Shown here: piece by piece, positions 13,117 to 52,003 of the stretch | Position numbering within the stretch: the stretch's first letter is position 1 | Layout: every line of letters starts with the position of its first letter | NCBI GenBank assembly: GCA_965198225.1 | Contig: CBDAOY010000008.1 | Location: forward strand, 768,012-832,011 | Source of the DNA: Terriglobia bacterium | Lineage (GTDB): Bacteria > Acidobacteriota > Terriglobia > 20CM-2-55-15 | DNA: 64,000 nt | Direction: 5' to 3' | The notes under the pieces: model-generated | The model's input: the letters and a program-made list of their open reading frames with translations, nothing else | What the model was told of the DNA's origin: nothing | Database searches by the model: none | Program-made: the position numbers and the translations under genes

Positions 13117-13971
13117 ATGCTGATGAAAGACTTCGGGAATTCCGGCACGCAAGTACCCGTCATCGGACAGGGTACATGGGAAATGGGTGATCGTCCCGCT
13201 GATGCGAAGCGCGAAATCGAGGCCTTGTGCGCGGGGCTGGATATGGGCCTGACCCATATCGACACCGCCGAGATGTATGGCAACGGGCGCTCGGAGCGAC
13301 TGGTCGGTAAGGCGATCGAGGGTCGGCGGGAGGAAGTGTTTCTGGTCAGCAAAGTGTTGCCGTCACACGGCGCCTATGACGATACGATCCGAGCGTGCGA
13401 ATCCAGCCTTCGCCGGCTGGGGACCGCCTACCTGGACCTATACCTGCTGCACTGGTGGACGGGGGGGAATCCGATTGAAGAAACGATGCGCGCAATGGCG
13501 AAGCTGGTCGACGACGGTAAGATACGGTTTGCAGGCGTGAGTAACCTGGAACTCGATGAGATGGACCAAGCCCGAGAGGCTCTCGGCGGGAAACCCCTAG
13601 TCTGCAATCAGGTGCTCTACCACCTGCAATCGCGCGGCATCGAGTTCCGCATGATCGACGAGTGTGCGGACCGTAGTGTGGCAATCGTCGCGTACTCGCC
13701 TCTGGGTCAGGGAGATTTCCCGACGCCGCAGGGCCGGCAGGGCAAGGCTCTCGCGCGAATTGCGGATCGCCACGGTAAGACGCCGCGTCAGGTGGCGCTG
13801 AATTTTCTCACAAGACAACGGAGCGTCTTCGCAATCCCGAAGGCCGCTCGGAGCGATCATGTTCGTGAAAACGCCGGCGCCCTCGGATGGTCCCTGACCA
13901 GGGAAGATCTCGCTCTGCTCGATGAAGCGTTTCCGCCCCCGGCGAAGGAAGTCCCTCTGGAGATGATCTAG
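13117..13971 (+). CDS. Aldo/keto reductase family oxidoreductase
   Basis: ...IGQGTWEMGD..., ...THIDTAEMYGNG..., AKR fold motifs; 284 aa. Confidence 0.85.
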   Translation: MLMKDFGNSGTQVPVIGQGTWEMGDRPADAKREIEALCAGLDMGLTHIDTAEMYGNGRSERLVGKAIEGRREEVFLVSKVLPSHGAYDDTIRACESSLRRLGTAYLDLYLLHWWTGGNPIEETMRAMAKLVDDGKIRFAGVSNLELDEMDQAREALGGKPLVCNQVLYHLQSRGIEFRMIDECADRSVAIVAYSPLGQGDFPTPQGRQGKALARIADRHGKTPRQVALNFLTRQRSVFAIPKAARSDHVRENAGALGWSLTREDLALLDEAFPPPAKEVPLEMI

Positions 13972-14061
13972 CCGTTGCGGGTTTTCGAGGAACGAATTGA
14001 ATCAAGCTCGGGCCAGGAAGGGGCGTTGCTTCGAAGGTGCCGCGGTAGGATCTTTAGAAGG

Positions 14062-14336
14062 CTAGTGACCTGTAACAGTGCTATCGGTACCAGCGTTCGG
14101 CGGAACGGCGTCGGATTCTAGGAGTGACGCCCGAGCCAATGCTGTTTCATTGCGAGGGCGTTACGACACCGAAGACGGCGCCGTTGGGCCGAACCCTTCG
14201 GGCCGATGGGGGTTGCGGGCGATCTCTTTGTCGGAAGCCGTCACCGATGAAAGAGCATCGCTTTCCGTCTCCCTCCTCGACCTCGCCCGCAAGACCCATC
14301 GGCGATGGTGCCGATAGCACTGTTACAGGCCACTAG
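14062..14336. mobile_element. MITE copy A (275 bp; TIR CTAGTGACCTGTAACAGTGCTATCGGTACCA ... TGGTGCCGATAGCACTGTTACAGGCCACTAG; TA duplication in a CTAG target)
   Basis: Near-identical reverse-complement copy at 51729-52003, diverged copy at 35240-35514; intergenic; internal ORFs not credible. Confidence 0.75.
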
Positions 14337-14395
14337 ATGTCGATTCCGAGAAACATCTTCCCCTTATCGGGTCGCTGACTCAAGGGTTCTCTTCG

Positions 14396-15913
14396 TCAAT
14401 TCAATCGAAAGATCGTGCAACACGCCGATCGAAAGGCTTCTTCAGCTTCGGGGTCGGAATTGAGCGCGCGAATCAGATTGCCGTGATCGTTCGTCACGAA
14501 GACAAGCCGAGACTGAAAGTCGTTCCGTATGACTTCCGCCGCTCGATTACCGGTGCGCGTGACGTCGACGTACCTGTCGTACAGTTCGGGGTCCTTCAGG
14601 TACATGAACAGAGGATCGAGCCCCACGATGAAGGTGTTTTCAGGAGCGGCGTAGAATAAGACCGGGAAGTCGTCCCAATCGGCGTTGAACACCCGCTCGC
14701 CGGGCCCGGTGTTTTCCCTGAACCATCCGGCCGCTTCGAGAGCCGGGCGATCGATTCCTTCACCCTGGAGTTCGTCGATCGCAGCACGCCCATTCGACCA
14801 GGCGAAGAAGCCGGCCAGGACCAGTGCCGCCGTCATCGACACCGCCTTACGGTATCCGGCCCAGGGGAAGGGTCTGGCTCCAACAGCGACCGCTGCCAGC
14901 AGAACGGAGAACAACGGCCAGTATTCCGAGAAGCGCCGGTGCTTCAGAAAGAGCACAAAGAAGAGGACCGACACCAGGGCCAGCGCATATCGGGCGGTGC
15001 GATTGTTCTCATCGGAAGCCCTCGCGAAGCCGAGCCCCGCGAGGAAGCATGTCAGCGCGATCCAACTGCTGGACAGCAGGTGGTCGGTCTCGAATGGGTA
15101 CCACTCGTTGCCCACGCGAACCGGAAACCCGCCGATGAGCTTGGAGCTGGCATGCACGATGACGAACCTCGCGTAGTCGAGCATGTAAGGGTGAATCAAC
15201 ATCCCCGCGAGCATCCCGGCGCCGGCGAACCAGATCGGATCAAGATTCCATTTTCCCTCGGCCACGGCCGCTCCGAGCACGGTCAAGGCCACAACGCCGC
15301 CCAGCATCGGGAAGGCCGCGTAGGTCCAGGCAAAGATAAAACCGACGGCGAACAACCCCCAGCGATACCGGCCGAGCGTGAGCCAGCAACCCAGCAGCAA
15401 CAGGATCGCACCCAGCGACTGGGCGCGAAGCAGGGACATCCGGTAGAGAAAAGGCTCCGATGCCGCTCCCAGGAGCACGAACCAGAACCACGGCCACCGC
15501 ACGCCGAATTTGCGGAGGAGGAAAAAGAAGGTTCCCGCCATCGCCGTAGCGAAGACGACGGCGGCGAGTTTCACCATGATCATGGGATCGCCGAGCGCGG
15601 TGAACGGTGCCATGAGGGCATGGAACAGGTAGTGGTGATCTGCGAAGTCGGCCTCCGATAGGATCGTCATCGAGAGGTAATCGAAGCGGAATGGCAGGAA
15701 GAGATGATCCAGCATGAGGGCGGCCATTCGCGCGTGATAGTACCCGTCGAATCCGGCCAGACCCGTCACCGAGAACTGAATCCACCCGAAGAATCCGAAT
15801 GCCAGAGTCAGCGCCAGGGTGTACTGGTAGAAGGGTCTACGGATGAGGACTGCTGCCAGCGCCAGGCTCGGGGGTTCTTCGCCCCGGGTCGATGATGTGG
15901 TTTCCTCGAGCAA
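14396..15913 (-). CDS. Polytopic membrane protein, candidate GT-C-type (PMT/ArnT-like) glycosyltransferase
   Basis: About 11 predicted TM helices plus a C-terminal soluble domain; follows a GT2 polyprenyl-phosphate sugar synthase homologue in the same operon; family assignment is inferred from architecture, no catalytic motif confirmed. Confidence 0.4.
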   Translation of the reverse strand: MLEETTSSTRGEEPPSLALAAVLIRRPFYQYTLALTLAFGFFGWIQFSVTGLAGFDGYYHARMAALMLDHLFLPFRFDYLSMTILSEADFADHHYLFHALMAPFTALGDPMIMVKLAAVVFATAMAGTFFFLLRKFGVRWPWFWFVLLGAASEPFLYRMSLLRAQSLGAILLLLGCWLTLGRYRWGLFAVGFIFAWTYAAFPMLGGVVALTVLGAAVAEGKWNLDPIWFAGAGMLAGMLIHPYMLDYARFVIVHASSKLIGGFPVRVGNEWYPFETDHLLSSSWIALTCFLAGLGFARASDENNRTARYALALVSVLFFVLFLKHRRFSEYWPLFSVLLAAVAVGARPFPWAGYRKAVSMTAALVLAGFFAWSNGRAAIDELQGEGIDRPALEAAGWFRENTGPGERVFNADWDDFPVLFYAAPENTFIVGLDPLFMYLKDPELYDRYVDVTRTGNRAAEVIRNDFQSRLVFVTNDHGNLIRALNSDPEAEEAFRSACCTIFRLN

Positions 15914-16063
15914 TGTGGTAGGTCTTGATCTGTATCAGCTTAGTGGTGGTCCGACTCTGCCGATCATATGAGGGTCAGCGGCTGGCACGGCAGGGAACCA
16001 GCCGGGAGAAGTCCAGCCAGACCCCGGCGTCCGGTCGCGAGATCCTGGATCGGTTGATACGAC

Positions 16064-16837
16064 CTACGGCGTGTCGTGCCGTTCGGCCGGTAGTTCGCCG
16101 CGAGTAGGCACCTCGCCCCACCGGACGCTCCACCAGACCCGCGGCAGCTCGAGCAGCGCGCGAAGGACCACGTCGAGCCGCGCTCCCGATTGCCGGCCGT
16201 GCCGACGGGCGTAGTGGTGGACTCCGATCTCTTCAAACACGTGCCCGCGCAAGCGGAGGCGCGCGAGCAGTTCGGCGTTGAAGAGAGCTCCGGTCGAAGA
16301 AAGGGAGACTCCGGCGATGGCGGACCGCCGGAAGAGCTTGAAGGCGCAATTCATATCCCTGCAATGGACACGCAGGACCACCCCGATCAGGGTCGTGTAG
16401 AGGGAGCCGAGCAGTCCCCGTCCCGTGGCATCCTGGCGGTTCAACCGGTACCCGAGTACGCCATCCGCTTCGCCGAGGACTTCGATGAGCCTGGACAACT
16501 CGGAAACGTTGAACTGGCCGTCGGCATCGGTGAAGAAGACGAACTCGAACCTCGCTGCTTTCATCCCGCTCCAGACAGCGGCGCCATACCCGCGATTCCG
16601 GACGTGTATCACGGTCCGCAACGTTGGATATTCCGATTGCAGCCGTTCGGCTTCGTCCTCGGTACCGTCGGTGCTGCCGTCGCAGACGACGATGATCTCG
16701 TGCGTTTCCGCGCAGGAAACGCCCGTTGCCGCAGCTTCTCGGACGACATCGGCGAGGTTCTCTCGCTCGTTGTGACACGGAAGGACGATGGAAAGTCCGG
16801 ATAGCCTCAACCTTCTCTCCTCATCTGTTCCATCCAC
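16064..16837 (-). CDS. GT2 family glycosyltransferase, polyprenyl-phosphate sugar synthase type (Dpm1/GtrB/Ppm1-like)
   Basis: ...LSIVLPCHNERENL..., ...VVCDGSTDGTEDEA..., ...FFTDADGQF... (DXD); 257 aa. Confidence 0.8.
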   Translation of the reverse strand: MDGTDEERRLRLSGLSIVLPCHNERENLADVVREAAATGVSCAETHEIIVVCDGSTDGTEDEAERLQSEYPTLRTVIHVRNRGYGAAVWSGMKAARFEFVFFTDADGQFNVSELSRLIEVLGEADGVLGYRLNRQDATGRGLLGSLYTTLIGVVLRVHCRDMNCAFKLFRRSAIAGVSLSSTGALFNAELLARLRLRGHVFEEIGVHHYARRHGRQSGARLDVVLRALLELPRVWWSVRWGEVPTRGELPAERHDTP

Positions 16838-17556
16838 CGGCGCTCCTCGAGTGCCGCAACAAGGAAACAGGTCACGGCGACCAACTCCACTCCTTCGTCC
16901 CAGAAGTCGACGTACCAGTTCCCTCGGGTCGCGGCGGGGAACAGGCCGACGTCAAAAAATTGCGACAATGTAAAGAGCGCAACTCCGGCGGCAGCCAGCC
17001 GTCCCGAGCTTCTCCGGAACAACTGCCGGAACTGTCCGGTCCGGATCAACGGTCGGATGAGAAACACGAGCAGGGTCAGAACGACCCCTGCCAGCAACAA
17101 GGTGATAAGCAAGGTCAGCCAGGGTTGGTGCTGGAAAAGGTCCTCGAGAGTATTGTGGACGTTCAACATGTTGTAGTCGACCCTTCCTTCCCGTACCGCC
17201 CTGATCTGCCGGGTCACGTTGCCCCAGTCGGATTCCTCACCCGCGCCCAGGATGCCGAGAACGCCGACGGCCCGCCAGCAGTTGGGGAAGGAGGGTCGCA
17301 GGTCGCGACTGGCAGCCTGAAACGCAAATACGGAGAGGAGGATGTAGCCGACGAACTGTGCCGTTTCGACCGGACCGTTCTCCTGGAGCACAACAAGGAC
17401 GAAGTCCGATTGGGGTTCGACCAGCATCAGCAGTTCGACGATGCTGACGAACAGGATTACCAGGCCGAGAGAAAGCCGAGTCGAAGGGCTCGTCGAGGCT
17501 CGTGAACGCGGTGGGTCCGCCGTAAACGCGCGGCCGAGGAACGTTTCCGCCTTCAC
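16807..17556 (-). CDS. Hypothetical integral membrane protein (operon partner of GT2/GT-C and the pilin genes)
   Basis: Several TM helices; 4-nt overlaps with neighbours on both sides indicate co-transcription. Confidence 0.45.
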   Translation of the reverse strand: MKAETFLGRAFTADPPRSRASTSPSTRLSLGLVILFVSIVELLMLVEPQSDFVLVVLQENGPVETAQFVGYILLSVFAFQAASRDLRPSFPNCWRAVGVLGILGAGEESDWGNVTRQIRAVREGRVDYNMLNVHNTLEDLFQHQPWLTLLITLLLAGVVLTLLVFLIRPLIRTGQFRQLFRRSSGRLAAAGVALFTLSQFFDVGLFPAATRGNWYVDFWDEGVELVAVTCFLVAALEERRWMEQMRREG

Positions 17557-18779
17557 TTCCGGACCTCCCGGAACGTGATGACCCTGGTCCGGATCGACGA
17601 GAGGTAGTTGCTTATCCGAGTCATGTCGAGCGCCAACTCGAAGCTGCCTCCTCCTTCGAAGTCCCCCCCGGCGATCGCCGCGCCATAGAGATTGTGGACC
17701 GACCCCCCTCCGCCAACGTCGAAATTTCCGGAACAGATGATCAGACCGTAGAAGGCGATGTTGGACAGGTCGACATCGCCGTCCGCGATGAGGATGCCGT
17801 AGGCGCTGTTGTTGTTTCCGTTGATGTCCACGGAACGGTCGCTGTACATGAGCGCAGGATTGGCGTCTGTGCCCACGGCAAAGCCAGTGTAGCGGTAAAG
17901 GTCGGATTGGGTGACCGTCGGCGTCGCGAGATCCGTTATCGGCGTGAAAGCGGCGCTGGCGGCGGCGACGTAGCTGGCGACGTCATAGTCGGGGCTGACG
18001 CTTCCGACCATGTCGTTCGGCGCTGCCGGGAAGAACAACTGGGTCGGGGGACTGGGAGTCGGAGGGGACGTATCTGCAGCCCGAACGCCGTCGACAGTCA
18101 CACCGGCAGTCACGTCGATTCCGTTGACCGAGATGTTTCCCTGCAGGGTCACGTCCCCGTTGGTTCGAACCACAGCGTCGATCGTAGGGCTGATGATGAA
18201 TGCCGGAACGATTTCAGCCTCGACCAACTCTCGACGCCCGTTGAGGGTGGCGTAGGCCTGGATCGTCCGGATCGGCACGCCGTTGCCGGTCAGATTTCGG
18301 GTCAGGTTGCCCGTCGTAGCGTCCGGTCCCAGGTAGACGACAGTGGTCGCGTCCAGACCAGCGACACCGTCGATGTCCCGGTTCTTGTTTGCTTCAGTGT
18401 TGTAGAAGATCTTGACCAGGACGTAAGGCGGGGTTCCCCCCAGCGCGGTCGCGACGGAGGTCGAGCCGTATCCACCGTATGCGGGATCCAGACCCAGGAT
18501 GTTGACGGTCGTGTCCGAGCGGATGTACCCGGCCCAGTTGGCCGTCGGTACCGCTGGCAGACTGGGTAGCTGCGACGCGGAACCGTAAAGAAGGCGTGCG
18601 CGCGCCTCCTCGATCCCGGCATCCGCGAAGTAAAACAGTTGGAGATTCCGTTCCAGGACCGAACTCGAGCGAGCATCCTCGAGCAGGTTCATCATCAGCA
18701 GGAGGGTCAGCGCGCTCATCATCGAGAGCAGGATCAGGACCGTGATCAGCGCGACTCCGCGTGCTTTCGATGCTCTCAT
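17553..18779 (-). CDS. PilX/GspK-like large minor pilin (PilX N-terminal domain)
   Basis: N-terminus MRASKARGVALITVLILLSMMSALTLLL is a typical PilX_N/GspK hydrophobic segment; 408 aa. Confidence 0.6.
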   Translation of the reverse strand: MRASKARGVALITVLILLSMMSALTLLLMMNLLEDARSSSVLERNLQLFYFADAGIEEARARLLYGSASQLPSLPAVPTANWAGYIRSDTTVNILGLDPAYGGYGSTSVATALGGTPPYVLVKIFYNTEANKNRDIDGVAGLDATTVVYLGPDATTGNLTRNLTGNGVPIRTIQAYATLNGRRELVEAEIVPAFIISPTIDAVVRTNGDVTLQGNISVNGIDVTAGVTVDGVRAADTSPPTPSPPTQLFFPAAPNDMVGSVSPDYDVASYVAAASAAFTPITDLATPTVTQSDLYRYTGFAVGTDANPALMYSDRSVDINGNNNSAYGILIADGDVDLSNIAFYGLIICSGNFDVGGGGSVHNLYGAAIAGGDFEGGGSFELALDMTRISNYLSSIRTRVITFREVRK

Positions 18780-18841
18780 CGTCCTATCCGCCTCCGTGCG
18801 GATTGTCGATCATCTTGCAGGCGCTCCAGGGCGTCGGTGTC

Positions 18842-19981
18842 TCATCGGCTTGAATTCGAGTTGGAGTTGCCGTTCGAGTTGGAGTTGCCGTTCGAATTGA
18901 AGTTGCCGTTCGAGTTGGAGTTGCTGTTCGAGTTGGAGTTGCTGTTCGAGTTGGAGTTGGAGTTGCTGTTGCTGTTGGAGTTGCCGTTCGAATTGGAGTT
19001 GGAGTTCGTGTTCGAGTTGGAGTTCGTGTTGCCACCACCACCATTGGCGTTGCCGCCATTGCCGTTGCCCCCGGAGGGCGTCGTCATGAAGCCGAGGATC
19101 CCGCTCCGCCGAAGCGTGACGTCGGAGCTGAGGGTCACGTTGATCTGATTACCCGAGACGGGGTGGTTCTGACTCGCGAAGGATGTGACCGAGAGGTTGA
19201 TCCGCGTGATATTGCCGAGGGTGCCGGTCGGAACCGAACTCTGTCCGCTACCGCCGCCGCTACCACCGCTGCCACCGCTACCGCCGTTCCCGTTGGAATT
19301 TGTGTTGCCGTTGGAGTTCGAATTCGTGTTGCCGTTCGAGTTCGTGTTGCCGTTCGAGTTTGAATTCGAGTTGGAGTTGCTGTTCGAGTTGGAGTTGCTG
19401 TTCTGGTTGGAGTTGCTGTTTGAGTTGGAATTGCCGTTCTGCGCTGCCAACGTGATGAAGCCCCATCGGCGGAGGAGTCGAGCGACGGGAGACGCCGTGG
19501 GTGACGGGGGATTGCTGACGAAGCTTCCGGCATCACCGGTCGACACGAAATACGCAAAGAGCAACGCCGAGATATTGGATGCCAGTTGCTGCGACGTCGC
19601 CGTGCCTGTCAGGGCACCGGTCGCGTCCAACGGTTGTGTCGTCCGTGTGATGATGTTGTTGGCGTAGCTGAACGTCACCCGTTCGACCGTTCCGTCATCA
19701 TTCGTGTCGCCCGAAAAGGCGACCGTGGACTGATCGGCCTGGGCGATCGGCGTCACACCGGCGGGAGTGTTGTAGCCGGCGGACAGCAATTCCCGCCCGA
19801 TGCGTTCGGCTGCGAGCCGGGAATTCTGGCCGGCCTCGAGCTGGGACTGCTGGATCTGATAGGTTCTCTGATTCTGGGTGACGAGGAGAAAGACCGCTCC
19901 GAGGACGACCATCAACACAGCCACAACGATCAAGACTTCCAGCAGGGTGAAACCTTTGCTTCCTCTCTGTGCAGCTCTCAT
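18842..19981 (-). CDS. PilW/GspJ-like prepilin-type minor pilin with a long Asn/Ser/Gly-rich repetitive C-terminal tail
   Basis: Class III signal ...SKG|FTLLEVLIVVAVLMVVLGAV; C-terminal (NSNSNG)n, GGSGGSGGSGGGSG and (NSNSNS)n tracts encoded by hexanucleotide repeats. Confidence 0.6.
   Translation of the reverse strand: MRAAQRGSKGFTLLEVLIVVAVLMVVLGAVFLLVTQNQRTYQIQQSQLEAGQNSRLAAERIGRELLSAGYNTPAGVTPIAQADQSTVAFSGDTNDDGTVERVTFSYANNIITRTTQPLDATGALTGTATSQQLASNISALLFAYFVSTGDAGSFVSNPPSPTASPVARLLRRWGFITLAAQNGNSNSNSNSNQNSNSNSNSNSNSNSNSNGNTNSNGNTNSNSNGNTNSNGNGGSGGSGGSGGGSGQSSVPTGTLGNITRINLSVTSFASQNHPVSGNQINVTLSSDVTLRRSGILGFMTTPSGGNGNGGNANGGGGNTNSNSNTNSNSNSNGNSNSNSNSNSNSNSNSNSNSNSNSNGNFNSNGNSNSNGNSNSNSSR
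18850..19032. repeat. Tandem hexanucleotide/18-nt repeat tract 1 (GAGTTG/GAGTTC units) inside the pilW-like gene
   Basis: gttcgagttggagttgccgttcgagttggagttgc... repeated; encodes (NSNSNG)n on the minus strand. Confidence 0.75.
19288..19440. repeat. Tandem hexanucleotide repeat tract 2 inside the pilW-like gene, preceded by a GGTAGCGGC repeat (19237-19290)
   Basis: gttggagttcgaattcgtgttgccgttcgagtt... encodes NSNSNSN; the GGS-coding repeat lies immediately upstream on the coding strand. Confidence 0.75.
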
Positions 19982-20000
19982 AGACAAACTCTCCCTCGTG

Positions 20001-20405
20001 TTACGGGGCCCGATAGGTTCGGGCCGAGAGGTCGATCGGCGATGTTCCACCGATACCGGTGATAACGGTCGTGGTCACCGTGATCTCTTTCATCCCGACG
20101 CCCGGGGAATCGACTGTGACGGTCCAGGATCGGGTGAAGGCAGCTCCTGTCTCGGAAGTTTGCGGAATCCCGTCATCGTCCAGAAAGTCATTTCCGCTCT
20201 GCAAGGAATCATACGATGTGGCCTTCAATTCCTCCATCTTTTGTCGCAGGGCGGAGGTCATCCTCGAGATGTCCTGACTGTTCTTCGTTCCGATGACACT
20301 GGTGCTCATCGCGCCGGCCACCGCGAGGACGCCCGTCATCAGGATGAGCGAGGCAAGCATCAACTCGATGAGGCTGAAGCCTCTCTGGCTACTGGATGCT
20401 GACAT
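20001..20405 (-). CDS. PilV/GspI-like prepilin-type minor pilin
   Basis: N-terminus MSASSSQRG|FSLIELMLASLILMTGVLAV is a prepilin cleavage/methylation motif; 134 aa. Confidence 0.65.
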   Translation of the reverse strand: MSASSSQRGFSLIELMLASLILMTGVLAVAGAMSTSVIGTKNSQDISRMTSALRQKMEELKATSYDSLQSGNDFLDDDGIPQTSETGAAFTRSWTVTVDSPGVGMKEITVTTTVITGIGGTSPIDLSARTYRAP

Positions 20406-20940
20406 GGCTGGTTCCGGACACGGTTACCTGGAGGCTGTTCCCCAGATCGTTCGTCACCGTGACGGTGTAGTTCGCGGTGATGTAATCATTGTTCAGATCC
20501 ACGACGTCGCCCGCGCTGTCGAACGAGATTGCGTGGACTCCTGCCGAGACCGTCGGCGCGTTCGAAGAAATGTCGACGCCGCTTGGAAGCACGATCGGGT
20601 CGCCGAGATCCGCGTAGACGGTGCCAGCCGTCAGGGAAAAGGGAGCCGTCGGGACGACGCGCTGTCGCTTGTAGGAATTGGCGTTCGTCGCCGACGTGGA
20701 GGCATAGAGCAGTATCCGATAGCCGGTGGTGTCCGAGATCGCGTCAAAGTGGCTGCGCTGAACCAGGGCGGCGATGCCGCGGGCCGACCCGTCGAGGACG
20801 TAGTTGGCGTTGATACTGGTCAGGTTCGGCACCGCTATGGCCAACACGATCAGCATGATAGCGATAACCATCGCTACTTCGAGCAAGCTGAAGCCGCGGT
20901 TTGTTCGAGCCAATCCTTTACCTCCTCCAGTTTGCCGCAA
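20389..20940 (-). CDS. FimT/FimU/GspH-like prepilin-type minor pilin
   Basis: ...TNRG|FSLLEVAMVIAIMLIVLAIAV; an internal TTG at about 20910 with an 8-nt GGAGGAGG RBS may be the real start (7-aa leader). Confidence 0.65.
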   Translation of the reverse strand: MRQTGGGKGLARTNRGFSLLEVAMVIAIMLIVLAIAVPNLTSINANYVLDGSARGIAALVQRSHFDAISDTTGYRILLYASTSATNANSYKRQRVVPTAPFSLTAGTVYADLGDPIVLPSGVDISSNAPTVSAGVHAISFDSAGDVVDLNNDYITANYTVTVTNDLGNSLQVTVSGTSHVSIQ

Positions 20941-21005
20941 TCAAACGCGCAAACGGAGCATCTGGGCCCGAGGGGGCCGTCAAACATCAATCCATCGAGT
21001 GGAAT

Positions 21006-21021
21006 GGCAGTTTCGGTTCCA
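21006..21021 (-). promoter_or_regulatory. Candidate sigma-54 (-24/-12) promoter for the minor-pilin operon
   Basis: Minus-strand TGGAACCGAAACTGCC has GG-N10-GC spacing (consensus TGGCAC-N5-TTGCW), about 70-100 nt upstream of the fimT-like start. Confidence 0.25.
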
Positions 21022-21383
21022 AAACTCGACCACTCATGGTGTGAGATGTCCGGTTCCCCTAGGGGCCGGCGCAAGAGCCCCCTTTTTTAAGGATAGAACA
21101 ACGCGATTATACGAACGGGACGGAACGACTGTAAAGCGGATATTGGAGTAGGATAGCGTCCTAGACACAACGACTTGTCGTTCTTGCGCGCTTTTGACTC
21201 AGAACTTTGTCGCTAGGAGAGTGCCCCGGCACGGACGGCTTCGCGGCATTGCCAGCGCGGATCGAACGGCTACTCTTGTCAGCGCCGAACCAGACGCTCG
21301 GCCTCTGCGGGGTCGGCGAGGCAGTCAGAGCGTTGACAGCCTGAGGGTGGTCGCATCCGATGGGGCCGTCTATCGCACCCGAC

Positions 21384-22376
21384 TCAGGGGAGACGCTCAA
21401 CAAGTCGGGAGTGGAGATCCGCCAGGACCACCTCGGCGGCGCCCTGGATCGAGACATCCAACTGCGCGGAGACGGCTGTCGCTTCGAGATTGATTTCCGC
21501 GCACCCGAAGGTGGAGATCCGCGTGAGACATCCCTTTGCTTCGAGATTGATTTCCGCAGCAAAGGCTCCGCGTGCCTTTGCGGTACTGCTGAGCGATGCT
21601 GCAGGGTAGACGACCGACGAGGTCCCAACGGTCAGGAATACGTCGCAGACCAGGGCCCCGGTCGCCTGCTCGAGCGTTTCCGAGGCGATTCCTTCACCGA
21701 ACCAGACGACACCGGGTCGGATGGGGCCATCACAGTGCGGGCATGTCGGCGGCAGCTTCTCGAACGTCGTCGTTTCGTCGAGCCACTTCGGTGGCGAGGA
21801 CGGGCAATCGTTCCAGCAAGAGACCTCCCAGATCGATCCGTGGAAGCGAACCACGTTGCTCGTGCCGGCTCGCTCGTGGAGGCCGTCGATGTTCTGAGTG
21901 ATCAGGGTGAACTCGGGATAGCGATGGCTCCAATCCGCGATGACTTCGTGGGCCCGGTTGGGCCTGCAGGCCGCGATCTTTTCCCTGCGCCACTGATACC
22001 ATTCCCATACGAGTTGCGGGTTCTCTGCGAATGCCTGGGGTGTGGCGAGGCTTTCCGGACGGTAGGACTTCCACAGGCCTTCCTGGCCACGAAAAGTGGG
22101 GACGCCGCTGGCTGCCGACACGCCCGCACCGGTCAACACGGTGAGGCTTCGCGCACCGTCCAGGGCGTCGACGATCCGATCGAGTGGGTCCTCCACTGCG
22201 GAGGATTGTAGAATGGGGACATCGTTCCGCAAGGATTTGTTGAGGGCAAAAAACAATAGGGGCGGACCGGCTCCGTGCTCGATCGATCTTGGTGGTTTAA
22301 AGCGCCTGCCGTTGAACACCGCAATCTGCGACACAGTCGGCGGAGACCTACTTCCGGATAGCGACGATAGTCGCAT
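21384..22376 (-). CDS. cobB: NAD-dependent protein deacylase, sirtuin (CobB/Sir2 family)
   Basis: ...LTGAGVSAASGVPTFRG..., ...QNIDGLHERAG..., Zn ribbon CWNDC...CPHCDG; the start could also be the GTG near 22199; the C-terminal region carries a 20-bp direct repeat (21482/21539) and a hairpin (21560-21582). Confidence 0.75.
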   Translation of the reverse strand: MRLSSLSGSRSPPTVSQIAVFNGRRFKPPRSIEHGAGPPLLFFALNKSLRNDVPILQSSAVEDPLDRIVDALDGARSLTVLTGAGVSAASGVPTFRGQEGLWKSYRPESLATPQAFAENPQLVWEWYQWRREKIAACRPNRAHEVIADWSHRYPEFTLITQNIDGLHERAGTSNVVRFHGSIWEVSCWNDCPSSPPKWLDETTTFEKLPPTCPHCDGPIRPGVVWFGEGIASETLEQATGALVCDVFLTVGTSSVVYPAASLSSTAKARGAFAAEINLEAKGCLTRISTFGCAEINLEATAVSAQLDVSIQGAAEVVLADLHSRLVERLP

Positions 22377-22570: not shown

Positions 22571-23806
22571 ATGAAGAACGCGAAACTGCACGCCTTCAAC
22601 AGACTCGCATTTGGGCCGCGGCAGGAAGATCTCGATCGCGATCTGGTCGATCTTCAGGAACACGTCGAGGTCCAGCTCCACCCGGCCGACATCGCCGACC
22701 AGGCGATAGAGCAGCGGCTGGCGACCCTGGAAACGCTCGGCATGTCGCCCCTGGAGTTCCTGAGGAAGTATCCCGGGCGCCGGGACTGGCGGATCGGTTT
22801 GCAGCAGCTGACGGCCGCAAAGCTGCTGCGCGCCGTCCAAAGCGAATGCCAGCTCCGGGAAGTGATGGTCGACTTCTGGTTCAATCACTTCAACGTATTC
22901 GCGGGTAAAGGTGCATGCCGGCTCCTGGTTTCTTCCTACGAGAGAGACGCCATCCGCCCGTACGTCTTCGGAAAGTTTCGCGAACTGGTGTCGGCGACGG
23001 CGCGCCACCCTGCGATGCTGTTCTACCTGGACAACTGGCTGAGCGCGTCGCCCGACGCCGAGCCGCGTGGGCGTCGTCGTGGGCTCAACGAGAACTATGC
23101 CCGGGAGTTGATGGAACTGCACACGCTCGGCGTCGATGGTGGCTACACGCAGGAAGACGTCGTCGCCGTGGCGCGCGCCTTCACCGGCTGGACGATAGAG
23201 GCCCCCCGGCGCCCGAGCTTCATGTTTGCCCCACCGCTGCATGACGACGGTGCCAAGACCGTCCTTGGCAGGGCGATAGACGGCGGCGGGATGCGGGATG
23301 GCGAACAGGTGATCGATGTGCTCTGTGGTCACCCGTCTGCGGCGCGGTTTGTCGCGACCAAATTGATTCGGCGTTTCGTCTCCGACGATCCCCCTGCGGC
23401 GCTGGTGGAGAGTGTGGCGCGGACGTTTACCCGGACGGATGGCGACATCCGGGAGATGCTCCGCGTGGTGATCCATTCGCGGGAGTTCGCCGAATCGGAA
23501 CAGCAGAAGGTCAAGACGCCGTTCGAGTTCGTCATCAGCGCCGTGCGTGCGCTCGGAGCCGAGGTGAGCAATCCCGGTATTCTCGCGCGGTTCCTGCAGC
23601 GGATGGGTCAGCCGCTCTACATGGCCATACCGCCGACCGGCTACTCCGACGAGGCGGCCGATTGGATGAGCTCCGGCACGCTGATGTTGCGTCTCAACTT
23701 CGTGGCGCAGATCGCTGCGGGGCGATCGCGGGGAATTCAGCTCGACGGGCGCGAGCCGGAGCAGATCGTCAGGAATCTGGGGACGCCGGAGTTTCAGCGG
23801 CGCTAG
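22571..23806 (+). CDS. DUF1800 family protein
   Basis: ...WFNHFNVFAGKGACRLLVSSYERDAIRPYVFGKFRELVSATARHPAMLFYLDNWLS... is the diagnostic DUF1800 block; pairs with a DUF1501 gene. Confidence 0.7.
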   Translation: MKNAKLHAFNRLAFGPRQEDLDRDLVDLQEHVEVQLHPADIADQAIEQRLATLETLGMSPLEFLRKYPGRRDWRIGLQQLTAAKLLRAVQSECQLREVMVDFWFNHFNVFAGKGACRLLVSSYERDAIRPYVFGKFRELVSATARHPAMLFYLDNWLSASPDAEPRGRRRGLNENYARELMELHTLGVDGGYTQEDVVAVARAFTGWTIEAPRRPSFMFAPPLHDDGAKTVLGRAIDGGGMRDGEQVIDVLCGHPSAARFVATKLIRRFVSDDPPAALVESVARTFTRTDGDIREMLRVVIHSREFAESEQQKVKTPFEFVISAVRALGAEVSNPGILARFLQRMGQPLYMAIPPTGYSDEAADWMSSGTLMLRLNFVAQIAAGRSRGIQLDGREPEQIVRNLGTPEFQRR

Positions 23807-24077
23807 CAGCCCGTGGCAGAACTCTGCAGGGCCGCGTTACGGCCAAACGGGGACCGGATTCTAGGAGGCGAGGACGAAACAATGCTCATTCATTGGGAGG
23901 AGTCGGCGACAACGAAGACGGCCCCATTTCGCCGTAACCCGAAGGGCGCAGGGGGGGGCGGGCCGCAGGCTTTGTCGCTCGTCGGTCACGATGAATGATC
24001 ATCGCTCCGCTCCTCTCTTCGCGCCTGCAACCCGAAGACCCCTGCGCGCGACCCTCCAGAGTTCTGCCACGGGCTGC
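23806..24077. mobile_element. MITE copy D: same roughly 210-bp core as copies A/B/C but different 30-bp termini (GCAGCCCGTGGCAGAACTCTGCAGGGCCGC ... inverted), with TA duplication
   Basis: Core blocks cggattctaggag, aatgct..ttcattg.gagg, cgaca.cgaagacggc, ctttgtcg and gtcac.gatgaa.ga.catcgct are shared with 14062-14336; flanked by TA/TA; sits between the DUF1800 and DUF1501 genes. Confidence 0.55.
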
Positions 24078-24122
24078 TATAGGGATGTTATTTCTGATTC
24101 AGGACGCCAGTTGGGTGAGGGA

Positions 24123-35239: not shown

Positions 35240-35514
35240 CTAGTGGCCTGTAACGGAGATATCGGCACCATCGCCGATGGGTCTTGCCAGTCGAGGTCGA
35301 GGAGAGAGGAGGAATTGATGCGGTTTCATCATGACGACGAACGACAAAGAGATCGACGGCAACCCCCATCGGCCCGGAGGGTTGCGGCGGAACGGCACCG
35401 TCTTCGTTGTCGCTCCTCCTCGCAATGTAGGCGCATTACCTCGTCGTCGACTCCTAGAATCCGGTGCCGTTCCACCGCAACGCTGGTACCGATATCTCCG
35501 TTACAGGCCACTAG
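35240..35514. mobile_element. MITE copy B (diverged; CTAGTGGCCTGTAACGGAGATATCGGCACCA ... TGGTACCGATATCTCCGTTACAGGCCACTAG) inserted exactly between the gnd stop and the FGGY-kinase start
   Basis: Same termini and core as 14062-14336 and 51729-52003; the gnd TAG stop lies in the right CTAG, the kinase GTG is 1 nt from the left CTAG. Confidence 0.7.
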
Positions 35515-51728: not shown

Positions 51729-52003
51729 CTAGTGGCCTGTAACAGTGCTATCGGTACCATCGCCGATGGGTCTTGCGGGCGAGGTCGAGGAGGGAGACGG
51801 AAAGCGATGCTCTTTCATCGGTGACGGCTTCCGACAAAGAGATCGCCCGCAACCCCCATCGGCCCGAAGGGTTCGGCGGAACGGCGCCGTCTTCGGTGTC
51901 GTAACGCCCTCGCAATGAAACAGCATTGGCTCGGGCGTCACTCCTAGAATCCGACGCCGTTCCGCCGAACGCTGGTACCGATAGCACTGTTACAGGTCAC
52001 TAG
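51729..52003. mobile_element. MITE copy C (reverse-complement, near-identical to copy A)
   Basis: CTAGTGGCCTGTAACAGTGCTATCGGTACCA...TGGTACCGATAGCACTGTTACAGGTCACTAG; spurious ORFs 51729..51941 and 51748..51987 mirror those in copy A. Confidence 0.75.

What the first reader, a model, noticed from the sequence alone, without database searches (positions are those of the whole stretch)
14396..20940. Minor-pilin operon (fimU/pilV/pilW/pilX-like) co-transcribed with a polyprenyl-P-sugar synthase (GT2) and a GT-C-like membrane protein: candidate dedicated pilin O-glycosylation module
Seen: seven co-directional genes with 4-17 nt overlaps. Four carry prepilin-type N-termini (FimT/GspH-like, PilV-like, PilW-like, PilX-like). 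They are followed directly by a multi-TM protein, a Dpm1/Ppm1-like GT2 enzyme and a 505-aa polytopic protein with GT-C-like architecture. The PilW-like protein ends in a roughly 200-aa Asn/Ser/Gly-rich tail, a plausible glycan acceptor. Established knowledge: GT2 polyprenyl-phosphate sugar synthases paired with GT-C enzymes perform protein O-glycosylation in Actinobacteria (the PMT pathway) and pilin glycosylation elsewhere (PglL/TfpO). A PMT-like pair embedded in a minor-pilin operon in place of pilY1 is not a described arrangement.
Basis: partly seen in the sequence, partly recalled or inferred. Interest (0 to 1): 0.7.

Follow-up and report, generated by a model that had tools for sequence, protein, structure and literature searches.

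The report
Pilin operon with OST-like glycosyltransferase
An acidobacterial operon joins four pilus-tip (minor pilin) genes to a lipid-sugar synthase and an unnamed, miniature relative of the enzymes that N-glycosylate proteins. Across many bacteria this enzyme family sits beside secreted proteins with Asn-x-Asn-x repeats, like those in one pilin here, which points to an undescribed protein-glycosylation system.

Summary
The seven co-directional genes are real: four prepilin-type minor pilins, a 249-aa membrane protein, a GT2 most similar to polyprenyl-phosphate sugar synthases, and a 505-aa polytopic protein.

The 505-aa protein has no Pfam or NCBIfam family. It is not PMT-, ArnT- or PglL-like. 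Its confident model (pLDDT 92) is closest over its full length to the oligosaccharyltransferases STT3, AglB and PglB (Z 23-26), including their C-terminal domain. A profile-profile comparison with true STT3-family proteins gives 98% probability. The catalytic Asp, Glu and Arg align, and DWDDF aligns in register with WWDYG.

The family occurs in about 1170 of 36,145 genera and is rarely next to pilins. Its usual neighbour is a same-strand secreted protein with (Asn-x)n repeats: 60 of 426 nearby ORFs against 1 of 693 distant ones. Asn is the constant residue, and Ser/Thr are dispensable. In this 6.4-Mb genome the only such protein is the PilW-like pilin of this operon.

In this order, the pilin genes and the GT-C gene occur in the same 4 of 35 genomes.

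Best reading: a dedicated glycosylation module for a minor pilin, probably Asn-linked rather than O-linked. The chemistry is inferred, not shown.

The parts
21106..21135 (-). Promoter-like site (TTTACA, 18-nt spacer, TATAAT; 11 of 12 matches), about 170 nt upstream of the first pilin gene
   Evidence: It is the only such site in 13800-21600. This is a consensus match only and does not exceed the number expected from shuffles.
20389..20940 (-). Minor pilin 1, GspH/FimT-like, 183 aa, prepilin-type N-terminus (RGFSLLEV)
   Evidence: N_methyl PF07963 E 9.4e-6. Weak GspH and Verru_Chthon-D hits, below cut-off. Orthologues are 57-87% identical in L005, L094 and L095.
20001..20405 (-). Minor pilin 2, PilV/GspI-like, 134 aa
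   Evidence: N_methyl E 8e-6. TIGR02523 PilV E 1.3e-4, below cut-off.
18842..20050 (-). Minor pilin 3, PilW/GspJ-like, 402 aa (379 aa from the ATG at 19981). Proposed acceptor protein.
   Evidence: N_methyl E 1.8e-7. It is the only strong (Asn-x)n ORF in the 6.4-Mb genome. All four orthologues have repeat blocks at the same two positions, with variable length.
19283..19438 (-). (Asn-x)n block 1 of the PilW-like protein (residues 205-256; x = S, G, T, Q). It is followed by a Gly/Ser linker and precedes the last conserved segment of the pilin domain.
18851..19030 (-). (Asn-x)n block 2, the C-terminal tail of the PilW-like protein (residues 341-400)
   Evidence: Two metagenome runs show a 6-nt (one N-S unit) length variant at 18962.
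17553..18779 (-). Minor pilin 4, PilX/GspK-like, 408 aa, with a large C-terminal domain
   Evidence: PilX_N PF14341 E 9e-7. GspK E 2.5e-4, below cut-off. In the order it is found in exactly the four genomes that carry the GT-C.
16807..17556 (-). 249-aa membrane protein of unknown family (about 6 helices), specific to this lineage. Its role (flippase, or anchor for the GT2) is only guessed.
   Evidence: Only 8 homologues of at least 57% identity among 5.8 billion proteins. Only weak distant hits among 1.84 billion representatives. It stays with the cluster in all four genomes, but lies divergently upstream in L095.
16064..16837 (-). GT2 glycosyltransferase, 257 aa, like polyprenyl-phosphate sugar synthases, with no C-terminal TM helices
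   Evidence: PF00535 E 1.6e-25. NCBIfam: ArnC 1.3e-17, AglJ 1.2e-14, PpgS 5e-12, Dol-P-hexose transferase 6e-12, all below equivalog cut-offs. PDB: ArnC 8e-16, P. furiosus DPMS 1.7e-11. A 39-43% identical GT2 lies directly beside the GT-C in five distant loci.
14396..15913 (-). 505-aa OST-like GT-C enzyme: TM core plus a roughly 120-aa periplasmic C-terminal domain. Conserved residues: D56 (GxDGYYH), H60, D92-H93-H94, H98, R158, E270 (VGNEWYP), R327, E330, W413-D414 (DWDDF), D433.
   Evidence: No Pfam or NCBIfam hit. AF2 pLDDT 92. STT3 Z 26.0, AglB 23.7, PglB 23.4; the C-terminal domain matches AglB-S2 at Z 10.0 and PglB at 9.3. hhalign against the STT3 family gives 98.25% probability.

Best explanation
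The operon encodes the four core minor pilins of a type IV pilus tip complex together with its own periplasmic glycosylation machinery.

- The soluble or peripheral GT2 charges a polyprenyl phosphate with a sugar on the cytoplasmic face (inferred).
- The lipid-linked sugar is flipped by an unidentified protein, possibly the 249-aa membrane protein (guess).
- The 505-aa protein is a miniature, highly divergent relative of the STT3/AglB/PglB oligosaccharyltransferases. It transfers the sugar in the periplasm onto the two (Asn-x)n blocks of the PilW-like minor pilin (inferred from genomic association).
- Asn is the only constant residue of the repeats that accompany this enzyme family in other phyla. 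The enzyme keeps the OST catalytic Asp/Glu/Arg and has DWDDF in register with the sequon-reading WWDYG motif. The linkage is therefore most likely to Asn, with an N-x-N-type acceptor instead of N-x-S/T (inferred).
- The result would be a heavily glycosylated, flexible appendage on the pilus tip (speculative).

Shown: gene content, fold, remote homology, conserved residues, co-inheritance, and neighbourhood statistics.

Not shown: any glycan, the donor sugar, the linkage, or the acceptor.
For: 1. Fold. The AF2 model has pLDDT 92 and pTM 0.91.
- Foldseek's top 13 hits are STT3 or AglB, with E down to 3.5e-9.
- VIA-align gives STT3 Z 26.0 (467 residues, rmsd 3.5), AglB 23.7 and PglB 23.4 over residues 17-505.
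- The C-terminal domain alone matches the AglB-S2 globular domain (Z 10.0, rmsd 2.4) and the PglB C-terminal domain (Z 9.3).

2. Remote homology. hhalign of the family alignment A1 against nine acidobacterial STT3-Pfam proteins (A4) gives probability 98.25, E 2.7e-14 and 413 aligned columns.
- D56 aligns with the EL1 Asp, E270 with the EL5 Glu, and R327 with the conserved Arg.
- DWDDF aligns column for column with WWDYG.

3. Conservation across carriers: D56 in 822 of 837, E270 in 612 of 618, W413 in 816 of 852, D414 in 672 of 900.

4. Partner proteins.
- ORFs with (Asn-x)n repeats make up 60 of 426 ORFs within 2.5 kb of a family member, against 1 of 693 ORFs more than 3.5 kb away. All 60 are on the same strand. 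They occur in 48 of 82 loci by a strict criterion.
- All four (Asn-x)n partner proteins scanned carry DUF5666, as does the anti-sigma-like neighbour family. Some have a lipobox or signal peptide, or a TM helix N-terminal to the repeats.
- The residue at +2 after Asn is Asn in 1160 of 1375 cases and Ser/Thr in 25. The x residues are D, G, S, A, E and T.

5. In this genome the GT-C is single copy, and the PilW-like pilin is the only strong (Asn-x)n ORF.

6. Co-inheritance.
- In the order, 4 of 35 genomes have the GT-C, and the same four have the PilX-like gene.
- G017 has the same seven-gene order.
- In the closed congener G018 the flanking genes are syntenic and the module is missing.

7. A second, distant case. 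A Mariprofundus MAG has FimT-, PilV-, PilW- and PilX-like genes, then a secreted 224-aa Asn/Ser/Asp-repeat protein, then a family member.

8. GT2 pairing.
- A GT2 lies directly adjacent in five distant loci.
- A GT2 lies within 2 kb in 33 of 300 carriers, against 9 at random places.

9. Exact pieces of the pilin genes and of the 249-aa gene occur in two sponge metatranscriptome libraries. Contigs bridge the PilV/PilW and PilW/PilX junctions. This is only a weak hint of expression.
Against: - No glycan, donor or linkage has been observed. Everything about the chemistry is inference.
- The protein fails the curated STT3 Pfam model, and a profile search finds no PDB sequence.
- The canonical WWDYG motif is not kept, and the OST DxD/DHH position in EL2 has no aligned counterpart. 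The active site may therefore work differently.
- The GT2 link is loose across the family: 0 of 60 in the band most similar to the alignment, and 11% overall against 3% at random places.
- In G022 the GT2 is split by an insertion sequence, yet the pilin repeats and the GT-C remain.
- About a third of family loci show no (Asn-x)n neighbour. One Blastocatellia subclade has different conserved neighbours.
- Pilin linkage is seen in only one acidobacterial lineage, one zetaproteobacterial MAG, and a few distant carriers. Related genomes are not independent observations.
- The window's repeats are rich in Ser, so O-linkage cannot be excluded for this locus.
Confidence: 0.5

Rival explanations
1. 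The GT2 and GT-C pair O-glycosylates Ser/Thr of the Asn/Ser-rich blocks of the PilW-like pilin, PMT- or TfpW-style, from a polyprenyl-P-monosaccharide.
For: - The window's repeats are mostly N-S and N-T.
- A GT2 resembling polyprenyl-P-sugar synthases is adjacent. Monosaccharide-P-lipid donors are typical of O- and C-mannosylating GT-C enzymes.
- PMT (Z 22.8) and DPY19 (Z 19.4) also match the TM core.
- TfpW is a precedent for a GT-C enzyme that O-glycosylates pilins (bioRxiv 10.1101/2020.04.19.049825, abstract seen).
Against: - In other lineages the family's partner repeats lack Ser/Thr, for example (NG)n/(NA)n in Blastocatellia and (ND)n/(NE)n in Chloroflexota. Asn is the invariant residue.
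- The best full-length structural matches, and the only ones that also cover the C-terminal domain at high Z, are the N-glycosylating OSTs.
- There is no PMT, PMT_2 or MIR Pfam match.
- hhalign places the family with STT3.
Confidence: 0.15
2. The GT2 and GT-C pair modifies a non-protein envelope glycan or lipid, such as LPS, exopolysaccharide or a sheath polymer. The (Asn-x)n proteins, including the pilin, are neighbours because they bind, organise or sense that polymer. They are not substrates.
For: - Many GT-C enzymes (ArnT Z 21.3, AftA 18.5, ALG12 19.8) act on lipids or glycans and also match the model.
- In Chloroflexota the family sits next to an ECF sigma factor and an anti-sigma-like protein, which could suggest envelope sensing.
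- A third of the loci have no repeat-protein neighbour.
Against: - The highest-ranked structural relatives, and the only detectable sequence-profile relatives, are protein-modifying OSTs, including the peptide-binding C-terminal domain with the WWD-equivalent motif.
- There is a one-to-one correspondence in this genome between the single GT-C and the single (Asn-x)n protein.
- The partner ORFs lie strictly on the same strand and adjacent.
Confidence: 0.15
3. The 505-aa protein keeps the GT-C fold but is not a glycosyltransferase. It might be, for example, a chaperone, an export or anchoring factor, or an enzyme doing other chemistry on Asn-rich segments. The GT2 beside it serves an unrelated pathway.
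For: - GT-C-fold proteins without transferase activity exist. PIG-U of the GPI transamidase appears among the matches at Z 12.6-13.5.
- The GT2 association is weak family-wide.
- The WWDYG motif and the EL2 acidic motif are not canonical.
Against: - The Asp, Glu and Arg that align with the OST catalytic and phosphate-binding residues are near-invariant across about 600-840 carriers.
- A 39-43% identical GT2 is immediately adjacent in distant lineages, and in this lineage too.
Confidence: 0.07

Closest known systems
STT3 / AglB / PglB oligosaccharyltransferases (CAZy GT66)
   Same: - The full-length GT-C fold, including the C-terminal periplasmic domain (Z 23-26; C-terminal domain Z 9-10).
- Profile-profile homology at 98% probability.
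- Aligned EL1 Asp, EL5 Glu and conserved Arg, and a W-D pair aligned with the WWD of WWDYG.
- Archaeal AglB N-glycosylates type IV pilins and archaellins (PMC5131992, abstract seen).
   Different: - It is only 505 aa, against about 600-1000.
- It fails the Pfam STT3 model.
- It has DWDDF instead of WWDYG, and no aligned EL2 DxD/DHH.
- The presumed acceptors are (Asn-x)n repeats with Asn, not Ser/Thr, at +2.
- The adjacent GT2 suggests a polyprenyl-P-monosaccharide donor rather than a PP-linked oligosaccharide.
- Activity is untested.
TfpW of Pseudomonas aeruginosa group IV pilins (a GT-C enzyme adding D-arabinofuranose to pilin)
   Same: A GT-C membrane enzyme encoded beside a type IV pilin gene. 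It uses a polyprenyl-P-sugar to decorate the pilin in the periplasm (bioRxiv 10.1101/2020.04.19.049825).
   Different: - TfpW modifies Ser/Thr of the major pilin (from my own knowledge, not checked here).
- Here the gene lies in a minor-pilin operon, and the presumed target is a repeat appendage on a PilW-like minor pilin.
- The enzyme is OST-like.
- No sequence comparison with TfpW was made, because no TfpW sequence was on hand.
PglL / PilO / TfpO O-oligosaccharyltransferases (Wzy_C family)
   Same: They are dedicated pilin glycosylation enzymes, often encoded next to pilA.
   Different: - They have a different fold and belong to a different family.
- The 505-aa protein has no Wzy_C match.
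- Two Wzy_C genes lie elsewhere in this genome, at C8:547.5-549.9 kb, next to two putative major pilin genes at C8:550.8-551.8 kb and a PilB-like ATPase. The classical route seems to exist separately.
Three-component periplasmic glycosylation systems (GtrA/GtrB/GtrC, ArnC/ArnEF/ArnT; Ppm1 with PMT in Actinobacteria)
   Same: The logic is the same: a GT2 polyprenyl-P-sugar synthase plus a GT-C transferase. The GT2 is most similar to ArnC, AglJ and DPMS. Such systems are reviewed in PMC11127046 (seen).
   Different: - There is no GtrA-family flippase in the operon. The only genomic hit is at C5:634665.
- The GT-C is not of the GtrC, ArnT or PMT families.
- The GT2 lacks the C-terminal TM helices of GtrB and ArnC.
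FimU-PilVWXY1E / GspHIJK minor (pseudo)pilin sets
   Same: Four consecutive genes with prepilin-type N-termini in the H-I-J-K order and size pattern. The last one has PilX_N.
   Different: - All equivalog models score below their cut-offs.
- No PilY1-like gene is in the operon.
- The PilW-like member carries two (Asn-x)n blocks.
- The set is accessory, present in 4 of 35 genomes of the order, and lies far from any assembly ATPase or secretin gene.

Membership tests
GT66 oligosaccharyltransferase (STT3/AglB/PglB) | Match to the curated STT3 model (Pfam PF02516) | tested here: not met
   The 505-aa protein has no Pfam family at E up to 1. The PF02516 six-frame search found 0 candidates in G000, although 29 of 301 genomes of the phylum matched.
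GT66 oligosaccharyltransferase (STT3/AglB/PglB) | GT-C fold with a multi-TM core plus a C-terminal periplasmic alpha/beta domain of the AglB/PglB type | tested here: met
   Model pLDDT 92. STT3 Z 26.0, AglB 23.7 and PglB 23.4 over residues 17-505. Residues 385-505 match the AglB-S2 C-terminal domain (Z 10.0, rmsd 2.4) and the PglB C-terminal domain (Z 9.3).
GT66 oligosaccharyltransferase (STT3/AglB/PglB) | Detectable sequence homology to family members | tested here: met
   hhalign A1 against A4: probability 98.25, E 2.7e-14, 413 columns. A profile search against PDB sequences found nothing, so the relationship is remote.
GT66 oligosaccharyltransferase (STT3/AglB/PglB) | Catalytic acidic residues in EL1 (Asp) and EL5 (Glu), and the conserved Arg | tested here: met
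   D56, E270 and R327 align with the invariant D, E and R of A4. They are kept in 822 of 837, 612 of 618 and 711 of 753 carriers. The EL2 DxD/DHH of A4 has no aligned counterpart.
GT66 oligosaccharyltransferase (STT3/AglB/PglB) | WWDYG motif in the periplasmic domain | tested here: not met
   The aligned pentapeptide is D-W-D-D-F (residues 412-416). Only the second W and the D are kept. W413 is kept in 816 of 852 carriers and D414 in 672 of 900.
GT66 oligosaccharyltransferase (STT3/AglB/PglB) | Transfer of a lipid-linked glycan to Asn of an N-x-S/T sequon | not testable with these tools
   This needs biochemistry. The presumed acceptor repeats have Ser/Thr at +2 in only 25 of 1375 Asn positions, and Asn in 1160.
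GT39 protein O-mannosyltransferase (PMT) / GT83 ArnT | Match to PMT, PMT_2 or ArnT-type models; MIR domains for PMT | tested here: not met
   No Pfam or NCBIfam hit at E up to 1. The structural match is to the TM core only for PMT (residues 20-384, Z 22.8). ArnT scores Z 21.3, below the OSTs.
Wzy_C O-oligosaccharyltransferase (PglL/PilO/TfpO) | Wzy_C domain (PF04932) | tested here: not met
   No hit in any of the seven proteins. Wzy_C genes are found elsewhere in the genome, beside the pilA-like genes.
GT2 polyprenyl-phosphate glycosyltransferase (Dpm1/DPMS, ArnC, GtrB, AglJ) | GT-A GT2 catalytic domain with closest similarity to the polyprenyl-P-sugar synthases | tested here: met
   PF00535 E 1.6e-25. 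The best NCBIfam hits are ArnC, AglJ, PpgS and Dol-P-hexose transferase, though PgaC/IcaA ranks second, and all are far below the equivalog cut-offs. The best PDB hits are ArnC 8e-16 and DPMS 1.7e-11. The acceptor lipid and the sugar are not testable here.
Type IV pilus / T2SS core minor (pseudo)pilin set (FimU-PilV-PilW-PilX, GspH-I-J-K) | Prepilin-type N-terminal cleavage/methylation motif on the first three members and a PilX_N/GspK-type N-terminus on the fourth | tested here: met
   N_methyl above cut-off in the 183-, 134- and 402-aa proteins. PilX_N above cut-off in the 408-aa protein.
Type IV pilus / T2SS core minor (pseudo)pilin set (FimU-PilV-PilW-PilX, GspH-I-J-K) | Equivalog-level identity of each member | tested here: inconclusive
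   The PilV, GspH, GspJ and GspK equivalog models all score far below their cut-offs. The globular domains were not folded.
Three-component (GtrA/GtrB/GtrC-type) glycosylation system | A GtrA-family flippase encoded with the GT2 and the GT-C | tested here: not met
   The only PF04138 hit in the genome is at C5:634665. The 249-aa membrane protein in the operon has no detectable family.

The most novel reading that the evidence does not exclude
The 505-aa family is a widespread, undescribed class of minimal bacterial N-oligosaccharyltransferase-like enzymes. It occurs in about 1170 of 36,145 genera: mainly Anaerolineae and Blastocatellia, with distant members in Patescibacteria, Planctomycetota and Myxococcota. 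These enzymes would glycosylate Asn in (Asn-x)n repeats, an N-x-N-type acceptor read by a DWD motif in place of WWD. The products would be mucin-like N-glycoprotein segments on lipoproteins, anti-sigma-like proteins and, in this lineage, a pilus-tip minor pilin. That would be the first N-glycosylated bacterial type IV pilin.
Probability: 0.35. Interest if true: 0.9.

Novelty: new variant of a known kind. Interest (0 to 1): 0.8.

Why it matters
- To my knowledge, OST-mediated bacterial N-glycosylation is known essentially from PglB of Campylobacterota and some Desulfobacterota, and bacterial pilin glycosylation is known only as O-linked (PglL/PilO/TfpO, TfpW).
- Here, a large unannotated family with an OST fold, OST catalytic residues and an altered sequon-reading motif is tied by gene neighbourhood to a simple, recognisable acceptor signature, (Asn-x)n.
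- If the inference holds, it would reveal a second, phylogenetically broad route of bacterial protein N-glycosylation with a new acceptor rule.
- It would also give a function to DUF5666-linked Asn-repeat proteins in Chloroflexota and Acidobacteriota.
- It would show that bacteria, like archaea, can N-glycosylate type IV pilins.
- A 505-aa single-subunit enzyme with a short repeat acceptor would be an attractive glycoengineering tool.
- The hypothesis is directly testable with peptides and co-expression.

Tried and rejected
- **Family scans of the 505-aa protein.** Pfam and NCBIfam scans gave no family. A profile search of PDB sequences gave only chance hits. The Atlas look-alikes are all 'hypothetical protein'.
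- **The 249-aa protein.**
  - The word-index search found only 8 close homologues.
  - The full HMM search of 1.84 billion representatives found only weak hits, and those hits have no Pfam family.
  - The AF2 model has pLDDT 55.7, too poor to search with.
  - The Atlas gave nothing.
  - Its role stays unknown.
- **Complex prediction of GT2 with the 249-aa protein.** No verdict, score 0.00. This is neither for nor against binding.
- **PilY1 (PF05567) search of the genome.** No hit, but the control matched none of the 14 reference genomes either, so this is uninformative.
- **Sponge metatranscriptome contigs.** None lay over the GT2 or GT-C genes. Nothing can be concluded from that.
- **Promoter and terminator scan.** One good promoter-like site upstream of the operon. 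The terminator-like hits lie mostly inside genes and were ignored.
- **Literature searches**. They found TfpW, three-component systems and AglB/PglB work, but nothing on this family, on DUF5666 function, or on (Asn-x)n acceptors. The library is partial, so this is not proof of novelty.
- **Readings considered and rejected.**
  - PMT-like or ArnT-like identity: no model match, and the OSTs rank higher.
  - PglL-like identity: no Wzy_C domain.
  - The Asn-rich frame being a wrong-frame artefact: in PilW it is continuous with the prepilin N-terminus and with a conserved C-terminal segment, and it is kept in four orthologues.
- **Phylogeny**. Within a starred 25-row non-Chloroflexota clade, the window's clade and the Mariprofundus locus fall in different well-supported subclades whose branching order is unresolved. 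One or two origins of pilin linkage cannot be told apart.

Full report
**What is there**

On the minus strand between 20940 and 14396 lie seven ORFs.

- The first three (183, 134 and 402 aa) pass the Pfam N_methyl model.
- The fourth (408 aa) passes PilX_N. The order and sizes follow the GspH-I-J-K / FimU-PilV-PilW-PilX pattern. The specific equivalog models all score below their cut-offs.
- Next comes a 249-aa membrane protein with no family.
- Next is a 257-aa GT2 (PF00535, E 1.6e-25). Its best named relatives are mostly polyprenyl-phosphate sugar synthases: ArnC, AglJ, PpgS, Dol-P-hexose transferase, and in the PDB ArnC and P. furiosus DPMS.
- Last is a 505-aa polytopic protein with no Pfam or NCBIfam hit at E up to 1.

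The junctions are not all overlaps. Three overlap, by 17 nt, 4 nt and up to 31 nt. PilW-PilX has a 62-nt gap and GT2-GT-C a 150-nt gap. One strong promoter-like site lies about 170 nt upstream of the first gene.

The flanking genes are unrelated to pili or glycans:
- a convergent aldo/keto reductase;
- an EamA transporter;
- upstream, a Sir2-family gene;
- a DUF1800/DUF1501 pair.

The nearest public record is a Terriglobia (Acidobacteriota) MAG. Its 505-aa orthologue is 97% identical.

**The 505-aa protein**

With an alignment of 34 homologues, AlphaFold2 gives a confident model (pLDDT 92.2, pTM 0.91).

Foldseek's best hits are yeast and human STT3 and archaeal AglB. DPY19, ALG12/ALG9, AftD, ArnT and PglB follow.

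An aligner that does not depend on Foldseek ranks the matches as follows:
- STT3: Z 26.0, 467 residues, rmsd 3.5.
- AglB: Z 23.7.
- PglB: Z 23.4.
- PMT (Z 22.8) matches the membrane core only.
- Residues 385-505 on their own match the C-terminal globular domain of AglB-S2 (Z 10.0, rmsd 2.4) and of PglB (Z 9.3).

Sequence methods alone see nothing in the PDB.

For a homology test I collected nine proteins from other Acidobacteriota genomes that pass the Pfam STT3 model. Two carry an exact WWDYG motif, and the alignment consensus over that stretch reads WWDxGYW. The 29-of-301 tally includes one unpublished genome, G058. No sequence from it was used.

The profile-profile comparison with the family alignment gives probability 98.25, E 2.7e-14 and 413 aligned columns. 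In that alignment:
- D56 of the GxDGYYH motif pairs with the invariant EL1 Asp.
- E270 of VGNEWYP pairs with the invariant EL5 Glu.
- R327 pairs with the invariant Arg.
- By my column count, D412-W413-D414-D415-F416 pairs one-to-one with W-W-D-Y-G.

These residues are near-invariant across the family: D56 in 822 of 837, E270 in 612 of 618, W413 in 816 of 852.

The protein is therefore a remote, miniature relative of the N-oligosaccharyltransferases. It is not a PMT, ArnT or PglL homologue. It is not a member of GT66 as currently modelled. The canonical WWDYG is not kept, and the EL2 acidic motif has no aligned counterpart.

**The family and its partners**

The family is large. More than 590 species-level hits came from a pattern scan. 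About 1170 of 36,145 genera carry it. The closest members are in Anaerolineae and Blastocatellia, with distant ones in Patescibacteria, Planctomycetota, Myxococcota and others.

Pilin genes are not its usual neighbours. N_methyl lies within 5 kb in 15 of 300 carriers, against 6 at random places. By similarity band the counts are 9/87, 6/75, fewer than 3/75 and 0/60.

A GT2 lies within 2 kb in 33 of 300 carriers, against 9 at random places. By band: 12/87, 12/75, 6/75 and 0/60. In five distant loci a 39-43% identical GT2 follows the gene directly.

The unexpected regularity is a different one. In most of the 82 loci examined, a same-strand neighbouring ORF encodes a protein with long runs of Asn at every second position.
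- Such ORFs are 60 of 426 within 2.5 kb, against 1 of 693 more than 3.5 kb away.
- Looser repeats, masked stretches and a mis-called strand account for several of the apparent negatives.

The typical layouts are:
- Anaerolineae: a lipoprotein with DUF5666 and (N-x)n, then the GT-C, then an ECF sigma factor, then a single-pass DUF5667/DUF5666 protein whose (N-x)n run lies after its TM helix.
- Blastocatellia: a signal-peptide protein with (NG/NA)n and DUF5666, then the GT-C, then a GT2.

Within the repeats, x is D, G, S, A, E or T. The residue two positions after Asn is Asn in 1160 of 1375 cases and Ser/Thr in 25. At least ten partner proteins show no Ser/Thr among the five commonest x residues of their runs. 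The conserved feature is Asn, and the classical N-x-S/T sequon is absent.

**Back to the window**

A six-frame scan of the whole 6.4-Mb genome finds exactly one strong (Asn-x)n ORF. It is the PilW-like pilin of this operon. The GT-C is single copy.

All four PilW orthologues carry two repeat blocks at the same two positions:
- One block lies before the last conserved segment of the pilin domain. The other is at the C-terminus.
- Their lengths run from 14 to 62 residues.

Two metagenome runs show a one-unit (6-nt) length variant in the C-terminal block.

Within the order (35 genomes, one family), the GT-C occurs in four genomes, and the PilX-like gene occurs in the same four.
- G017 keeps the seven-gene order at the same chromosomal site.
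- In G022 an insertion sequence splits the GT2, and the 249-aa gene lies divergently upstream.
- In the closed congener G018 the EamA and Sir2 flanks are syntenic, but unrelated sequence of about 2.9 kb replaces the module.

The module is thus an accessory unit, inherited or lost as a whole.

A Mariprofundus MAG offers a distant parallel. It has FimT-, PilV-, PilW- and PilX-like genes, then a secreted 224-aa Asn/Ser/Asp-repeat protein, then a family member, without a GT2. In a quick tree it falls in a different well-supported subclade from the window's clade, so one or two origins cannot be told apart.

**Mechanism proposed**

Shown:
- gene content, fold and remote homology;
- conserved catalytic-type residues;
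- co-inheritance with the pilin genes;
- the statistical link to extracytoplasmic (Asn-x)n proteins.

Inferred:
- The GT2 makes a polyprenyl-P-sugar.
- The sugar is flipped. The 249-aa protein is only a guess for this step, and no GtrA-family gene is nearby.
- The OST-like enzyme transfers it in the periplasm to the repeat blocks of the PilW-like pilin.
- The linkage is most likely to Asn, because Asn is the only constant residue of the family's partner repeats and the closest relatives are Asn-glycosylating enzymes.
- DWD in place of WWD could read an Asn instead of a Ser/Thr at +2. This is speculation.

This parallels the archaeal AglJ/AglB route, which does glycosylate archaeal pilins (PMC5131992).

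Evidence for expression is weak. Exact contigs from two sponge metatranscriptome libraries cover parts of the pilin genes and of the 249-aa gene, and they bridge two gene junctions. DNA carry-over cannot be excluded.

**Rivals and limits**

- O-linkage to the abundant Ser of this particular protein cannot be excluded.
- The enzyme might act on a non-protein glycan.
- It might have lost transferase activity.
- The GT2 link is loose family-wide, and about a third of the loci lack a repeat neighbour.
- Related genomes are not independent observations.
- No glycan has been observed.

**Comparison with known systems and novelty**

- The classical bacterial pilin glycosylation enzymes (Wzy_C family) are a different family. 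They appear to be present separately in this genome, next to the putative major pilin genes.
- TfpW is the nearest functional precedent: a GT-C enzyme beside a pilin gene.
- PglB and AglB are the nearest structural and evolutionary relatives.
- I found no paper on this family, on DUF5666 function or on (Asn-x)n acceptors in the searchable library.

I rate it a new variant of a known kind: OST-type protein glycosylation with a new enzyme family and a new acceptor signature, here fused to a pilus-tip pilin.

Noticed in passing
window 23804-24079; further copies at 14093-14262, 35303-35483 and 51803-51972: A MITE-like dispersed repeat of about 280 bp with 33-bp terminal inverted repeats. The own genome has about 102 hits, and the congener G018 has more than 40. 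In metagenome contigs the depth over 14057-14313 is about 1600, against about 13 for the flanks. One copy lies just downstream of the GT-C gene.
   Followed up: partly
outside the window: G000:C8:547518-549858 (-), 550803 and 551348 (+), 554434 (+): Two Wzy_C (O-antigen ligase / PglL-PilO type) genes lie divergently next to two putative major pilin genes and a PilB-like ATPase. This is the classical layout for pilin O-glycosylation, and it is separate from the module studied here.
   Followed up: partly
L002/L003/L095 (G022), GT2 region; L004: In the 57%-identical relative the GT2 gene is split by a DDE transposase (IS). GT2 residues 11-45 lie on one side and 41-242 on the other. In L004 an IS66 transposase sits directly upstream of the GT-C, and the pilin genes are absent from the locus.
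   Followed up: partly
L024, L025, L029, L046, L049, L050, L053, L065 (Blastocatellia subclade): This well-supported subclade of the GT-C family has no (Asn-x)n neighbour. Instead, most of its loci keep a conserved 268-aa lipoprotein-like gene upstream, and several also keep a 755-808-aa protein. Neither has a Pfam family. This may be a second substrate class.
   Followed up: no
L006, L018, L040 and many other Anaerolineae loci: An ECF sigma factor gene follows the GT-C in about 40 loci. It is followed by a single-pass DUF5667/DUF5666 anti-sigma-like protein that itself carries (Asn-x)n repeats on its extracytoplasmic part.
   Followed up: partly
window 18962 (PilW C-terminal repeat block): Contigs from two DNA runs of different studies lack 6 nt (one Asn-Ser unit) here. 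The L005 orthologue also carries an extra Pro/Thr-rich insert. The repeat length is polymorphic.
   Followed up: partly
window 14396-20940, public runs X15 and X17: Two sponge-metagenome metatranscriptomic libraries hold exact pieces of the operon, which suggests a sponge-associated habitat for this or a near-identical organism. The DNA holders come from five other studies whose labels are coded.
   Followed up: partly
L107, L109 and other loci: Proteins that pass the Pfam STT3 model occur in 29 of 301 sampled Acidobacteriota genomes. The count includes the unpublished genome G058. Two of the nine aligned proteins carry an exact WWDYG motif, so this phylum also holds canonical-looking PglB/AglB-type OSTs.
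   Followed up: partly
whole genome G000: The genome has an unusually large repertoire of type IV filament genes: about nine full-length PilB/GspE-like ATPase hits, further shorter T2SSE (PilT-like) hits, and four secretins. However, only 13 ORFs carry a canonical prepilin motif. This operon lies far from any ATPase or secretin gene.
   Followed up: no
window 22571-25346 (+): A DUF1800 / DUF1501 gene pair. The DUF1501 protein has a weak, below-cut-off match to the TAT signal model. The pair lies upstream of the operon, with the MITE-like copy in its intergenic region.
   Followed up: no
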